Source: Candidatus Kaiserbacteria bacterium (GTDB taxonomy: Bacteria; Patescibacteriota; Minisyncoccia; Phycocordibacterales; UBA918). From it: DNA of 64,000 nt. Shown here piece after piece: positions 28,541-30,681 of the stretch. Positions within the stretch are counted from its first letter, which is position 1. Each line of letters starts with the position of its first letter. The stretch spans positions 18,562 through 82,561 of the forward strand of contig JACQKD010000014.1 of the NCBI GenBank assembly GCA_016204695.1. The letters run 5' to 3'. Made by a program: the position numbers and the translations under genes. The notes under the pieces were generated by a model. The model saw only the letters and a list, made by a program, of their open reading frames with translations. It was not told the origin of the DNA and did no database searches.

Positions 28541-29010
28541 ATACGTATACGCTCTTGTATTTGTACGACTCGAAAGCGCGCCGGATTCTGCTCGCGCTGA
28601 AAAAACGCGGGTTCGGGGAGGGAAAATGGAACGGTATCGGCGGAAGAGTGGAAGAAGGAGAGACGGTGGAAGATGCGGCGGTGCGAGAGGCGCAAGAGGA
28701 GGCAAGAGTGGAGGTCAGTCCGGACACACTGGTACGCCGCGGCAGTATTCGTTTTTCATTTGAAAACCGTCCGGAACTTGATCGGGACGTGCATATCTTT
28801 TTTACGGAAGAATGGAAGGGAGAACCTATCGAAACCGGGGAGATGCGGCCGCGGTGGCATGACGCCGCCCGTCTTCCGTATGAAGAAATGTGGATTGCCG
28901 ACAAAGATTGGCTACCGAAGATGCTTGCCGGAAAAGTAATAGCGGGACGCGTCCGCCTCTCCGGCTCGGGGGACCGGATTTTGGACATGGAAATCAAAGA
29001 CTCGGTGTAG
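28537..29010 (+). CDS. Nudix hydrolase (MutT-like)
   Basis: Nudix box GGRVEEGETVEDAAVREAQEEARV; ATGA overlap with the upstream MazG-like gene. Confidence 0.8.
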   Translation: MNTYTLLYLYDSKARRILLALKKRGFGEGKWNGIGGRVEEGETVEDAAVREAQEEARVEVSPDTLVRRGSIRFSFENRPELDRDVHIFFTEEWKGEPIETGEMRPRWHDAARLPYEEMWIADKDWLPKMLAGKVIAGRVRLSGSGDRILDMEIKDSV

Positions 29011-29031
29011 TATATTGAGACGCGCGGAGAA

Positions 29032-29104
29032 GCCACCTTAGCTCAGTTGGTAGAGCACCACTTTCGTAAAGTGGGGGTCCTCGGTTCAATCCCGAGAGGT
29101 GGCT
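29032..29104 (+). tRNA. tRNA-Thr (anticodon CGU)
   Basis: Cloverleaf: acceptor gccacct/aggtggc, D arm tagctcagttggtagagc, anticodon stem ccact/agtgg with loop ttCGTaa, T arm ctcgg-ttcaatc-ccgag. Confidence 0.8.
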
Positions 29105-29178
29105 CCGAGAGTGCGAGCACAGAAAAATCCGCGGAAAAGCGTAGGTGGGGTAAACTGCTATTATGATATGGTAGTAGT

Positions 29179-29886
29179 ATGCTGATTCTCACAAAAAACA
29201 TTCTGGAGAAAGAGTACTGTAACAACAAAAAATCAGTCGCTGAGATAGCTAAATTTTTTAATTGTTCGCAACACAAAATAAACTATTGGCTGGGTAAGTA
29301 TCACATTCCTAAAAGAAAAATTTCGGAAGCGATGTATATCAAATGGAATCCGAGGGGTGATCCTTTTGCCTTTAATAACCCACAAACCTTAGACAAAGCA
29401 TTCCTATGGGGATTGGGACTCGGATTATTTTGGGGAGAAGGTAATAAGAAGAACACGGACTCGGTCCGACTGGGTAACGTGGATCCCGGACTTATACGAA
29501 CGTTTTTAAAGTTTCTTGACGAGATCTATACTATTGATCATGCACGACTGAGATTCGGGCTTCAGACTTTTACCGACATTGGTGAGAATGCGGCAGTCGC
29601 TTATTGGTGTCGGGAGTTGCGAGCAAACCGCCGACAATTCTATAAAGTTACAGTCACGCGCTCTGGAAGTCTTGGAACATATCGAGAAAAAAGTAAGCAC
29701 GGAGTTCTAACTATCTATTTCCACAACAAAAAACTTCGTGATAGTATCGTCAATGCGATTGGGGAATTGGGTTCTGGTTCCATTCGCAAAAGTGCCATCT
29801 TAGCTCAGTTGGTAGAGCGCGTCCATGGTAGATCGCAAAAGATCTCTGCCCTTTGGGACAGAAACGTCCCATCGAATCCCGAATAA
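29179..29886 (+). CDS. HTH plus degenerate LAGLIDADG-like (putative homing endonuclease) protein; the 3' end runs into the tRNA-Thr(GGU) 5' exon
   Basis: N-terminal HTH-like KSVAEIAKFFNCSQHKINYWL; central AFLWGLGLGLFWGEGN resembles a single LAGLIDADG motif (acidic E in the catalytic position) followed by an I-CreI-like FLKFLDEIY region. The locus is AT-rich. The exact C-terminus is uncertain because the frame stays open through the tRNA exon into the intron. Confidence 0.4.
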   Translation: MLILTKNILEKEYCNNKKSVAEIAKFFNCSQHKINYWLGKYHIPKRKISEAMYIKWNPRGDPFAFNNPQTLDKAFLWGLGLGLFWGEGNKKNTDSVRLGNVDPGLIRTFLKFLDEIYTIDHARLRFGLQTFTDIGENAAVAYWCRELRANRRQFYKVTVTRSGSLGTYREKSKHGVLTIYFHNKKLRDSIVNAIGELGSGSIRKSAILAQLVERVHGRSQKISALWDRNVPSNPE

Positions 29887-30075
29887 CGGTCAACGGCCTG
29901 ACACCGGTTAAGACCGTGGCCTTCTCTCAATAGAAGGCCCGAACGACTGACACGGGAAGTTTCATTCGCCGACGGGTGAAGATGCTTAAGATACAGTCTA
30001 GCCCTCTTATAGTGTCTGTCGAAAAAGAGGTGTAAGCGAAGGACGAGGTCCCCGGTTCAATCCCGGGAGATGGCT
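29794..30075 (+). tRNA. tRNA-Thr (anticodon GGU) interrupted by a 209-nt intron in the anticodon loop (between positions 36/37)
   Basis: 5' exon 29794-29829 (acceptor gccatct, D arm, anticodon stem cgtcc, loop atGGT) and 3' exon 30039-30075 (aa, ggacg, variable aggtc, T arm cccgg-ttcaatc-ccggg, acceptor agatggc, discriminator t). The joined exons closely resemble canonical bacterial tRNA-Thr(GGU). Confidence 0.6.
29830..30038 (+). ncRNA. putative group I intron (209 nt) in tRNA-Thr(GGU)
   Basis: Boundaries obey group I rules (5' exon ends in U, intron ends in G). The size is similar to the smallest known tRNA group I introns. An internal acagtctag segment resembles a P7/R-element-like sequence. 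No ORF inside. Confidence 0.45.
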
Positions 30076-30096
30076 CAATAGATCCATAGGCGGAAG

Positions 30097-30681
30097 TTAT
30101 AACGGCTTAAAGAGTGCTTGGAGCGCTTCTTTCTTTTCAGGGTACAGCTTCGCTTCATACAATACCGGCGCGATCTCTTTCTCGGAGAAATGTTTACTCG
30201 TGCCAATCTCAACAAACTCATCGAACGTAACCGGCTTGAGTGTGATCCTTTCGCCGGCATCGAGATGCATGTCCGCGATTTTGGTGAGACCTTTTGCGAT
30301 GAAACTGAAAACGACGTAGTCAATCTTCGAGGTAGGGTGGTGAGCATCCCATAGGGTAAACTCGGATGCTTCATATCCGCTTTCTTCGAGGAGCTCGCGC
30401 TTTGCCGCGTCGAGGATATCCTCACCCTCATCAACCCGACCTCCGGTTGCCGCAATAAAAGACGCTTTCCCGGGCTGTTCTTGCTCGGTCAGTACGATCT
30501 TCCCGTCGTCGAGCACCGGAAACACGACGACCGTGTCGGCTCGTTTCAGTTTTTCAAACATTGTTTTCGTGCCGTCGAAAAGCTCCTGCTCCCATTGGTA
30601 GACATCGAAGATGACCCCGTCAAAGACTTTTTTCGCATGATCAGGGATCGGCTGATCCGACGGCGGTCGAGAGATATGCAT
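30097..30681 (-). CDS. Nudix hydrolase (ADP-ribose pyrophosphatase-like)
   Basis: Nudix box GGRVDEGEDILDAAKRELLEESG. Confidence 0.75.
   Translation of the reverse strand: MHISRPPSDQPIPDHAKKVFDGVIFDVYQWEQELFDGTKTMFEKLKRADTVVVFPVLDDGKIVLTEQEQPGKASFIAATGGRVDEGEDILDAAKRELLEESGYEASEFTLWDAHHPTSKIDYVVFSFIAKGLTKIADMHLDAGERITLKPVTFDEFVEIGTSKHFSEKEIAPVLYEAKLYPEKKEALQALFKPL

What the first reader, a model, noticed from the sequence alone, without database searches (positions are those of the whole stretch)
29179..29886. AT-rich LAGLIDADG-like homing endonuclease candidate between two tRNA-Thr genes, reading into the intron-containing tRNA
The ORF between tRNA-Thr(CGU) and tRNA-Thr(GGU) has an N-terminal HTH-like segment and a degenerate single LAGLIDADG-type motif (AFLWGLGLGLFWGEGN). 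Its frame remains open across the tRNA 5' exon into the intron, with its stop at 29884-29886. A free-standing or intron-associated homing endonuclease next to a group I intron fits a mobile intron/HEG pair. The low GC content of 29100-29800 relative to the flanking DNA supports horizontal origin. The overlap of a protein-coding 3' end with a tRNA exon is unusual and may point to a frameshift, a decaying HEG, or a very compact arrangement.
Basis: partly seen in the sequence, partly recalled or inferred. Interest (0 to 1): 0.55.

Follow-up and report, generated by a model that had tools for sequence, protein, structure and literature searches.

The report
LAGLIDADG-like gene abutting tRNA-Thr gene
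The ORF is a real, strongly conserved member of an undescribed family of helix-turn-helix plus LAGLIDADG-fold proteins that, across the ultra-small Patescibacteria (CPR) bacteria, sits directly in front of (often overlapping) a tRNA gene; it is most likely a free-standing homing-type endonuclease gene aimed at tRNA genes, not an intron-encoded one.

Summary
A 235-aa ORF (29179-29886) lies between tRNA-Thr(CGU) and a split tRNA-Thr(GGU). It reads through the 5' exon and stops 54 nt into a 209-nt group I intron.

The gene is tied to the tRNA gene, not to the intron:
- In 84 of 85 ORF-selected loci it sits just 5' of tRNA-Thr(GGU); 23 of those tRNAs have no intron.
- Of 86 intron-selected loci, 47 lack the ORF.
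- 59 of 111 full-length copies overlap the tRNA. In 39 the stop is the tRNA's own U8-A9-G10 TAG.
- Paralogues precede tRNA-Trp, Met, Tyr and Thr(UGU). Distant relatives lie near tRNA genes on viral contigs.

The low GC is a family-wide trait that tracks host GC, so it is not evidence of recent transfer. The gene is under strong purifying selection and tracks a neighbouring host gene.

Best reading: a free-standing, tRNA-flank-targeted homing-endonuclease-type gene (about 0.5). The main rival is a domesticated tRNA-linked DNA-binding factor.

The parts
28988..29016 (+). Promoter-like site (TGGAAA-17-TATATT) upstream of tRNA-Thr(CGU). It is a possible start of a tRNA-ORF-tRNA transcript.
   Evidence: Consensus scan only. 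No terminator-like site lies between it and 30112 on the + strand.
29032..29106 (+). tRNA-Thr(CGU), intron-less
   Evidence: ARAGORN; Rfam tRNA at 66.5 bits.
29179..29886 (+). ORF of 235 aa, annotated hypothetical protein HY416_03895 of a Candidatus Kaiserbacteria MAG. The conserved protein is aa 1 to about 199. Aa 206-235 are read-through of the tRNA exon and intron.
   Evidence: P0001 is 100% identical. Homologues cover about 83% of the query.
29194..29346 (+). N-terminal helix-turn-helix DNA-binding module (aa 6-56)
   Evidence: AF2 helices at 6-15, 20-26, 31-40 and 48-56 with pLDDT 88-97. Family members hit HTH_23 and HTH_28. PHROGs phage 'HNH endonuclease' families phrog_8446 (1.5e-6) and phrog_7545 (1e-4) match this module.
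29389..29775 (+). LAGLIDADG-fold core domain (aa 71-199), with one extra helix inserted between strands
29398..29445 (+). LAGLIDADG-type motif AFLWGLGLGLFWGEGN. The Glu87 codon is at 29437-29439.
   Evidence: G86, E87 and G88 are invariant in alignment A1. GEG is present in 108 of 108 copies where the motif is found. The motif aligns to I-DmoI motif 2, GLYVAEGDK.
29794..29829 (+). tRNA-Thr(GGU) 5' exon, ending at U36. It is also translated as ORF codons 206-217.
   Evidence: ARAGORN with introns allowed, and the spliced tRNA.
29830..30038 (+). Group I intron (209 nt) at anticodon-loop position 36/37. This is the 'divergent' Patescibacteria tRNA-Thr type. The ORF stop at 29884-29886 lies inside it.
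   Evidence: In 151 of 151 unique homologous introns the intron follows U36 and ends in G. P1 carries a U-G wobble. P3, P4, P6, P7 and P9 are 96-100% paired across most positions, with compensatory changes in P6 and P9. RF00028 gives no hit, as PMC13011429 reports for this intron class.
30039..30076 (+). tRNA-Thr(GGU) 3' exon
30112..30138 (+). Terminator-like hairpin plus T-run after the tRNA
   Evidence: Consensus scan only.

Best explanation
The ORF is an intact member of an undescribed, Patescibacteria-wide family of free-standing homing-endonuclease-type genes. Each protein has an N-terminal HTH DNA-binding module and a single LAGLIDADG-fold domain, which by analogy would act as a homodimer. 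The family's niche is the 5' flank of tRNA genes; this subfamily uses tRNA-Thr(GGU).

Shown:
- The fold, the conserved acidic motif residue, and the near-universal same-strand position abutting or overlapping the tRNA.
- Presence/absence of a roughly 700-bp ORF cassette between related flanks.
- Independence from the intron.

Inferred:
- The protein recognises DNA at or near the tRNA gene's 5' boundary in ORF-less alleles and cuts it, and the cassette is copied in during repair.
- The cassette is co-transcribed with the tRNAs.
- Because the stop codon usually lies inside the tRNA (here inside the intron), RNase P and splicing would compete with translation and keep protein levels low.

The group I intron 36 nt downstream is a frequent but separable companion, not the gene's host. 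In this window the long overlap is simply the frame in which the tRNA's own TAG is not read.
For: Fold
- Seven of the eight best PDB hits to the core-domain profile are I-DmoI, aligned at its second LAGLIDADG motif.
- hhalign against I-DmoI gives P = 1e-4.
- One family member hits LAGLIDADG_3 at E = 0.003.

Catalytic-type residue
- GEG is present in 108 of 108 copies where the motif is found.

Homing-endonuclease-style modularity
- The N-terminal HTH matches the HTH of phage families annotated as HNH endonucleases.

tRNA targeting
- 84 of 85 ORF-selected loci have tRNA-Thr(GGU) directly downstream.
- 123 of 126 superfamily sites have a same-strand tRNA within -160 to +200 nt. These include paralogues before Trp, Met, Tyr and Thr(UGU).
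- 59 of 111 copies overlap the tRNA, and in 39 the stop is the tRNA's own TAG.

Dispensable and insertion-like
- L141 (empty) and L064 (occupied) have upstream flanks 85% identical and differ by a cassette of about 700 nt ending a few nt from the tRNA.
- 47 of 86 intron loci lack the ORF.
- L167 carries one internally deleted remnant.

Mobile genomes
- Four distant relatives occur on large viral contigs. All four have tRNA genes within the fetched 2-kb flanks, and one sits inside a 9-tRNA array.

Known precedent
- T4 SegB is a free-standing homing endonuclease in a tRNA cluster (PMC2330249).
Against: - No nuclease activity or target site has been shown.
- The evolutionary pattern looks like a resident host gene. 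dN/dS is about 0.04-0.07.
- ORF identity tracks identity of the adjacent PrfB (r = 0.72). No pair has an ORF markedly more similar than its host gene.
- GC and GC3 track host GC.
- About 111 copies are full-length and only one is a degenerate remnant. That is unlike the usual gain, decay and loss cycle of homing endonuclease genes.
- No ORF-plus and ORF-minus pair with near-identical flanks (above 95%) was found.
Confidence: 0.5

Rival explanations
1. A domesticated LAGLIDADG-fold protein. The family no longer moves. It serves the host as a sequence-specific DNA-binding (or RNA-binding) factor dedicated to the tRNA gene it precedes, for example controlling transcription or processing of that tRNA operon. 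It is kept next to its target by co-transcription. WhiA is a precedent for a LAGLIDADG fold plus HTH turned regulator.
For: - Purifying selection is strong.
- The ORF co-diverges with the neighbouring PrfB, with no transfer outliers.
- GC is ameliorated to the host.
- Almost all copies are intact.
- Strand and distance relative to the tRNA are strictly conserved.
Against: - The gene is dispensable. More than half of the intron-bearing tRNA-Thr(GGU) loci lack it, and a related genome has an empty site.
- The metal-binding-type Glu is invariant. From general knowledge, WhiA and pure maturases have lost theirs.
- Relatives occur on viral contigs.
- The HTH is shared with phage families annotated as HNH endonucleases.
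Confidence: 0.27
2. A collaborative homing pair. The free-standing endonuclease cuts intron-less tRNA-Thr(GGU) genes at the intron insertion site in the anticodon loop. The intron protects the resident allele, and both elements are co-converted into new genomes.
For: - The intron is present in 61 of 84 ORF loci, against 3 of 95 complete Patescibacteria genomes in PMC13011429.
- Intron-bearing tRNAs have CC..GG closing the anticodon stem in 60 of 61 cases. Only 4 of 23 intron-less ORF-linked tRNAs do.
- The anticodon arm is a DNA pseudo-palindrome. From general knowledge that would suit a homodimeric LAGLIDADG enzyme; this is inference.
Against: - L084, L025, L066 and L071 have an intact GEG ORF beside an uninterrupted CC-NTGGTAA-GG site. 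L084's anticodon arm is identical to the commonest intron-bearing allele.
- 47 of 86 intron loci have no ORF.
- Paralogues sit at intron-less Trp, Met, Tyr and Thr(UGU) genes.
- The constant feature is the tRNA 5' boundary, not the intron.
Confidence: 0.12
3. A maturase. This would be a LAGLIDADG protein that helps the divergent group I intron of tRNA-Thr(GGU) to fold and splice, encoded beside rather than inside the intron.
For: - ORF and intron co-occur.
- From general knowledge, LAGLIDADG maturases are known, for example I-AniI and yeast bI3.
Against: - 23 of 84 ORF loci have no intron.
- Paralogues sit at intron-less tRNAs.
- Most intron loci manage without the ORF nearby.
- Other Patescibacteria tRNA introns (tRNA-Asn and tRNA-Asp) self-splice in vitro (PMC13011429).
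Confidence: 0.05
4. A decaying or frameshifted gene, or an assembly artefact. On this reading the read-through into the tRNA reflects loss of the true stop codon.
For: - The 30-aa tail is non-conserved and poorly modelled.
- Only two loci in the full-length set (the window and L058), plus the near relative P0002, show the same long read-through.
Against: - The conserved domain is complete and collinear with homologues up to about aa 199.
- Overlap with the tRNA is the majority state in the family.
- The same protein sequence occurs on two contigs in public data.
- The motif is intact.
Confidence: 0.02

Closest known systems
I-DmoI-like and intein-associated LAGLIDADG endonucleases (I-DmoI, I-Tsp061I, PI-PfuI, TliVMA intein endonuclease)
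   Same: - The motif GLYWGEG-K aligns with I-DmoI motif 2, GLYVAEGDK. From general knowledge that motif carries I-DmoI's catalytic Glu.
- The following strand and helix are collinear.
   Different: - It has a single domain, so by analogy a homodimer would be needed.
- It carries an extra helix between strands and an added N-terminal HTH.
- It falls below all Pfam LAGLIDADG thresholds.
- It is free-standing, not inside an intron or intein.
- It is bacterial (CPR).
Phage T4 SegB, a free-standing GIY-YIG homing endonuclease in the T4 tRNA gene cluster (PMC2330249)
   Same: - It is a free-standing endonuclease gene embedded among tRNA genes.
- It promotes inheritance of the tRNA region.
- Relatives of the present family also sit in or near tRNA genes on viral contigs, one inside a 9-tRNA array.
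   Different: - The nuclease family differs: GIY-YIG versus LAGLIDADG fold.
- SegB activity is demonstrated; activity here is inferred.
- The present family is chromosomal, abuts one specific tRNA, and often overlaps it.
Collaborative homing of a free-standing endonuclease gene with an ORF-less group I intron (cyanophage S-PM2 F-CphI/psbA, Aeromonas phage Aeh1 MobE/nrdA; recalled from memory, not checked here)
   Same: An ORF-less group I intron lies within a few tens of nt of a free-standing endonuclease-type gene, and the two co-occur statistically.
   Different: ORF and intron are each common without the other. An intact ORF coexists with an uninterrupted intron site. A strict protect-and-cut partnership is therefore not supported.
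LAGLIDADG homing endonucleases in Patescibacteria rRNA insertions (Tsurumaki et al. 2024, PMC11270868, cited in PMC13011429)
   Same: The host phylum is the same, the targets are structural RNA genes, and the superfamily is LAGLIDADG.
   Different: Those enzymes are encoded inside the rRNA insertions and PMC13011429 describes them as LAGLIDADG-family homing endonuclease genes. This family lies outside the gene it accompanies and escapes Pfam.
WhiA (DUF199)
   Different: From general knowledge, WhiA has two degenerate LAGLIDADG domains lacking the catalytic acids and a C-terminal HTH. It is a core gene not linked to tRNA genes. This family has one domain, keeps the Glu, has an N-terminal HTH, and is dispensable.

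Membership tests
LAGLIDADG endonuclease superfamily | Alpha-beta-beta-alpha-beta-beta-alpha core fold with the motif helix at the domain start | tested here: met
   [not shown]
LAGLIDADG endonuclease superfamily | Motif helix ending in a conserved acidic (metal-binding) residue | tested here: met
   The motif is GLGLGLFWGEGN. E87 is invariant in alignment A1, and GEG is present in 108 of 108 copies. It aligns with the Glu of I-DmoI motif 2. In the wider superfamily a few members replace it, for example ADA, SKG and AGG.
LAGLIDADG endonuclease superfamily | Significant match to a curated LAGLIDADG profile (PF00961, PF03161, PF14528) | tested here: not met
   No hit for the window protein or the 30 close homologues. 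One of 33 divergent core domains hits PF14528 at E = 0.003, below the level of a confident call. The PDB profile search gives E = 0.13-0.24.
LAGLIDADG endonuclease superfamily | Site-specific DNA cleavage leaving 4-nt 3' overhangs; two active sites formed by a dimer or tandem domains | not testable with these tools
   There is a single domain, so a homodimer is implied by analogy only.
Mobile homing endonuclease gene (behaviour) | Presence/absence polymorphism at the same site between related genomes | tested here: met
   L141 is empty, with 10 nt between the upstream RNA gene and the tRNA. L064 is occupied by a cassette of about 700 nt. Their upstream flanks are 85% identical. tRNA-Tyr lies under 150 nt upstream in ORF-less loci and 600-1100 nt upstream in ORF loci.
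Mobile homing endonuclease gene (behaviour) | Phylogeny or composition discordant with the host (horizontal spread) | tested here: not met
   ORF identity correlates with identity of the adjacent PrfB (r = 0.72) with no outliers. ORF GC tracks flank GC with r = 0.80. The test is limited to 26 and 79 loci respectively.
Mobile homing endonuclease gene (behaviour) | Degenerate copies alongside intact ones (gain, decay and loss cycle) | tested here: inconclusive
   One internally deleted remnant (L167) was found among 47 ORF-less loci, against about 111 full-length copies.
Intron-encoded homing endonuclease | Coding sequence located inside the intron it mobilises | tested here: not met
   The conserved protein (aa 1-199, 29179-29775) ends 19 nt before the tRNA 5' exon. 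Only the non-conserved tail enters the intron.
Group I intron (the neighbouring element) | U before the 5' splice site paired as U-G in P1; terminal G; conserved P3-P4-P6-P7-P9 core with covariation | tested here: met
   151 of 151 unique introns follow U36 and end in G. The P1 GGU:GCC pairing holds in 150-151 of 151. P3, P4, P6, P7 and P9 are 96-100% paired across most positions, with compensatory changes in P6 and P9. P2, P5 and P8 could not be evaluated because the alignment is poor there.
Group I intron (the neighbouring element) | Match to Rfam RF00028 | tested here: not met
   No hit even at E <= 10. PMC13011429 reports the same for this 'divergent' tRNA-Thr 36/37 intron class, which only the gpI_bact_tRNA model detects.
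WhiA-type domesticated LAGLIDADG regulator | Two degenerate LAGLIDADG domains without catalytic acids, plus a C-terminal HTH | tested here: not met
   There is one domain, the HTH is N-terminal, and the Glu is retained.

The most novel reading that the evidence does not exclude
The family is not, or no longer, a selfish nuclease. It would be a previously unknown class of tRNA-gene-dedicated factors in CPR bacteria. Each paralogue would be encoded on the same transcript as its cognate tRNA, with translation terminating inside the tRNA at its universal U8-A9-G10. Ribosome passage, RNase P cleavage and intron splicing would then be mechanically coupled. Under this reading the protein binds the tRNA gene or precursor to control tRNA output.
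Probability: 0.2. Interest if true: 0.8.

Novelty: new variant of a known kind. Interest (0 to 1): 0.6.

Why it matters
A recent survey of Patescibacteria tRNA introns looked for endonuclease genes only inside introns longer than 500 bp. It concluded that most tRNA introns lack them and that horizontal transfer is therefore limited (PMC13011429).

In this sample, about 45% of the intron-bearing tRNA-Thr(GGU) loci have an unannotated LAGLIDADG-fold gene directly in front of the tRNA. The family has no Pfam model and is labelled hypothetical. It occurs in at least 542 species genomes, with paralogues at other tRNAs and distant relatives near tRNA genes on viral contigs.

If it is an active nuclease, three things follow:
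- It adds a new lineage of small, single-domain LAGLIDADG scaffolds with an appended HTH.
- It provides a route for mobility of tRNA regions and their introns in CPR bacteria.
- It gives a bacterial chromosomal counterpart to phage free-standing endonucleases such as T4 SegB.

The recurrent placement of the stop codon inside the tRNA is also a testable case of coupling between translation and tRNA processing.

Tried and rejected
- **Rfam.** Two E-value searches of the region and a gathering-threshold scan of the whole window gave no group I hit. This is a known blind spot for this intron class, so I used splice-site hallmarks and covariation instead.
- **Sequence searches with the whole protein.** phmmer and the full-length family profile found nothing in PDB. 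NCBIfam returned only weak HTH hits.
- **hhalign against I-CreI.** No match.
- **GenBank phage collection (tblastn).** No match.
- **Viral scan with the divergent alignment A2.** It was repeated with A1.
- **Near-identical ORF-plus and ORF-minus allele pairs.** None above 85% flank identity.
- **Low GC as a sign of recent transfer.** Rejected.
- **Intron as obligatory immunity for the resident allele.** Rejected in its simple form.
- **Explicit pairings for P2, P5, P8 and P10 of the intron.** Could not be evaluated on the MAFFT alignment.
- **D-arm target idea.** The D-arm is a 22-bp pseudo-palindrome and might be the target. This stays untested speculation.

Full report
**What is at the coordinates**

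The window is a Candidatus Kaiserbacteria (Patescibacteria/CPR) contig. The ORF product is 100% identical to the NCBI entry 'hypothetical protein HY416_03895'. The ORF runs 29179-29886 on the + strand and encodes 235 aa.

tRNA-Thr(CGU) lies 72 nt upstream at 29032-29106. Default ARAGORN and Rfam see nothing downstream. With introns allowed, ARAGORN calls tRNA-Thr(GGU) at 29794-30076 with a 209-nt intron, and the spliced sequence folds as a canonical tRNA-Thr(GGU).

The GC dip is also real: 0.36-0.45 against 0.50-0.56.

**The intron**

RF00028 gives no hit even at E <= 10. PMC13011429 (mSystems 2026) reports exactly this. Patescibacteria tRNA-Thr(GGU) genes carry 'divergent group I introns' at position 36/37. 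RF00028 misses them, and ARAGORN often miscalls the gene as Arg(GCG). I saw the same miscalls.

I collected 151 unique homologous introns. All follow U36 and all end in G. The exon GGU pairs with an invariant intron GCC, with a U-G wobble at the splice site. P3, P4, P6, P7 and P9 are 96-100% paired across most positions, with compensatory changes in P6 and P9. P2, P5 and P8 were too poorly aligned to judge. The neighbour is a group I intron of a known, recently described class.

**Is the ORF a real gene and what fold does it have**

It has 433 or more homologues, typically 195-215 aa, none with a Pfam domain beyond an occasional HTH. Conservation stops at about aa 199. The tail made from the tRNA exon and intron is not conserved. 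For the three pairs with usable dS, dN/dS is 0.04-0.07, and dS is near saturation even at 85% protein identity.

Pfam, NCBIfam and sequence searches of PDB give no significant LAGLIDADG hit. One divergent member reaches PF14528 at E = 0.003.

The structural evidence is consistent:
- A profile of 33 divergent core domains finds I-DmoI as seven of its eight PDB hits (E 0.13-0.24). It aligns GLYWGEG-K to GLYVAEGDK of I-DmoI motif 2, with the following strand and helix collinear.
- hhalign against I-DmoI gives P = 1e-4 and probability 56%.
- The Glu in the motif is invariant: GEG in 108 of 108 copies.
- Foldseek against PDB and hhalign against I-CreI were negative.

The N-terminal 55 residues are an HTH. 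They match the HTH module of phage families annotated as HNH endonucleases: phrog_8446 at 1.5e-6 and phrog_7545 at 1e-4.

My conclusion is an HTH plus a single, divergent LAGLIDADG-fold domain, which falls outside the curated Pfam families.

**What the gene is linked to**

In 84 of 85 ORF-selected loci, tRNA-Thr(GGU) lies directly downstream on the same strand. The one exception runs off its contig. Sixty-one of these tRNAs carry the intron and 23 do not, for example L003/L013, where the stop codon abuts tRNA position 1.

I then selected loci by an intron-core pattern in metagenomes. Of 86 evaluable tRNA-Thr(GGU) intron loci, 39 have the ORF and 47 do not. ORF and intron are therefore enriched together: 73% here, against 3 of 95 complete genomes in PMC13011429. 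They are also separable.

Close ORF relatives differ in intron state. L051 (intron-bearing) is 83% and 77% identical to L083 and L084 (both intron-less). L084 has an intact ORF beside an uninterrupted anticodon arm identical to the commonest intron-bearing allele. That argues against the enzyme cutting at the intron insertion site with the intron as immunity.

**The junction with the tRNA**

Among 111 full-length copies:

| Position of ORF stop relative to tRNA start | Copies |
|---|---|
| Overlaps the tRNA | 59 |
| 0-10 nt before it | 20 |
| 11-80 nt before it | 29 |
| More than 80 nt before it | 3 |

In 39 of the overlapping copies the stop is the tRNA's own U8-A9-G10 TAG. The window copy, at -93, uses the frame in which that TAG is not read, so it runs on to a TAA in the intron. 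Several homologues end in A(N/I)(V/L)AQ(L/S)VER(V/I)HG(K/R)SQ, which is the translated D-arm and anticodon arm.

The overlap is therefore a recurrent compact arrangement, not a frameshift. A promoter-like site precedes tRNA-Thr(CGU). The only terminator-like site on the + strand follows tRNA-Thr(GGU). This is compatible with one tRNA-ORF-tRNA transcript, but these are consensus matches only.

**A wider family**

Across all fetched loci, 123 of 126 superfamily ORF sites have a same-strand tRNA within -160 to +200 nt. Eleven of these are paralogues caught incidentally: tRNA-Trp (4), Met (2), Thr(UGU) (2), Tyr (2) and one uncertain call. More divergent members (25-35% identity) also end in translated tRNA sequence.

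Four distant relatives (24-32% identity) lie on viral contigs of 55-446 kb, each with tRNA genes within the fetched 2-kb flanks. One sits inside a 9-tRNA array.

**Mobile or resident**

For mobility:
- L141 and L064 share upstream flanks that are 85% identical. They differ by a cassette of about 700 nt holding a terminator-like hairpin, the ORF and a TATAAT box. The cassette ends a few nt before the tRNA.
- tRNA-Tyr lies under 150 nt from the tRNA in ORF-less loci and 600-1100 nt away in ORF loci.
- One internally deleted remnant exists, in L167.
- Relatives occur on viral contigs.

Against recent mobility:
- ORF GC tracks flank GC (r = 0.80, GC3 slope 1.36) and is lower in 79 of 79 loci by about 9 points. 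The low GC is a family trait, not a mark of recent import.
- ORF identity tracks identity of the adjacent PrfB (r = 0.72), with no pair in which the ORF is markedly more similar than the host gene.
- Intact copies vastly outnumber remnants.

**Interpretation**

I favour, at about 0.5, a free-standing homing-endonuclease-type gene family whose niche is the 5' flank of tRNA genes, with the group I intron as a frequent but independent companion. The fold, the motif and the genomic association are shown. Cleavage, the target site and regulation through stop-in-tRNA overlap are inferred.

The main rival, at about 0.27, is a domesticated tRNA-linked DNA-binding factor. The selection and co-divergence data fit that reading well. 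The strict collaborative-homing reading (about 0.12) and a maturase role (about 0.05) are weakened by the separability data. A frameshift or decay explanation is very unlikely.

**Novelty**

The intron class is published. Two full-text searches found no description of this tRNA-flanking gene family. The closest paper searched for endonuclease genes only inside introns. I rate the finding a new variant of a known kind, that is, a free-standing homing endonuclease gene of the LAGLIDADG fold.

Noticed in passing
L004:3960-4200: An HNH-like ORF remnant (..CVCGW..NLRLICQNCDALS..) lies just downstream of another intron-bearing tRNA-Thr(GGU). This is a second endonuclease-type relic at the same kind of locus.
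   Followed up: no
proteins P0132, P0134, P0136 and many others: Hundreds of proteins of 400-820 aa consist of 5-14 tandem copies of the same N-terminal HTH module found in this family. Their function and context are unknown.
   Followed up: no
L064:1990-2188 and the homologous stretch of L141: The RNA gene just upstream of tRNA-Thr(GGU) has its own group-I-like core (GTAGAGACTAGA ... GAAGATATAGTCC) and ends ...TTCACCACCCACCA. It may be another intron-bearing tRNA or tmRNA.
   Followed up: no
L207:1710-2387 (viral contig IMGVR_UViG_3300042090_000643): A distant family member sits inside a 9-tRNA array. It has a Cys-rich, zinc-finger-like N-terminus in place of the HTH, which suggests module swapping in the family.
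   Followed up: partly
L090:6384-6868: Two copies of the intron-core pattern lie 468 nt apart, and no split tRNA is called. This may be tandem introns or a different host gene.
   Followed up: no
L182:3831-4436: This is the one case where a full-length family member lies on the opposite strand, divergent from the intron-bearing tRNA-Thr(GGU) about 100 nt away. It is an exception to the same-strand rule.
   Followed up: partly
anticodon arms of tRNA-Thr(GGU) in L001-L084 and the window: Intron-bearing tRNAs keep C30-C31/G39-G40 next to the loop in 60 of 61 cases while the rest of the stem covaries freely. Intron-less ORF-linked tRNAs vary at these positions; only 4 of 23 have CC/GG. This constraint is tied to the intron and its basis is unexplained.
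   Followed up: partly
window:28537-29010 (+) and window:30097-30681 (-): Both protein genes flanking the tRNA-ORF-tRNA unit look Nudix-like by eye. The first contains a Nudix-box-like stretch, GGRVEEGETVEDAAVREAQEEA. I did not check this with profiles.
   Followed up: no
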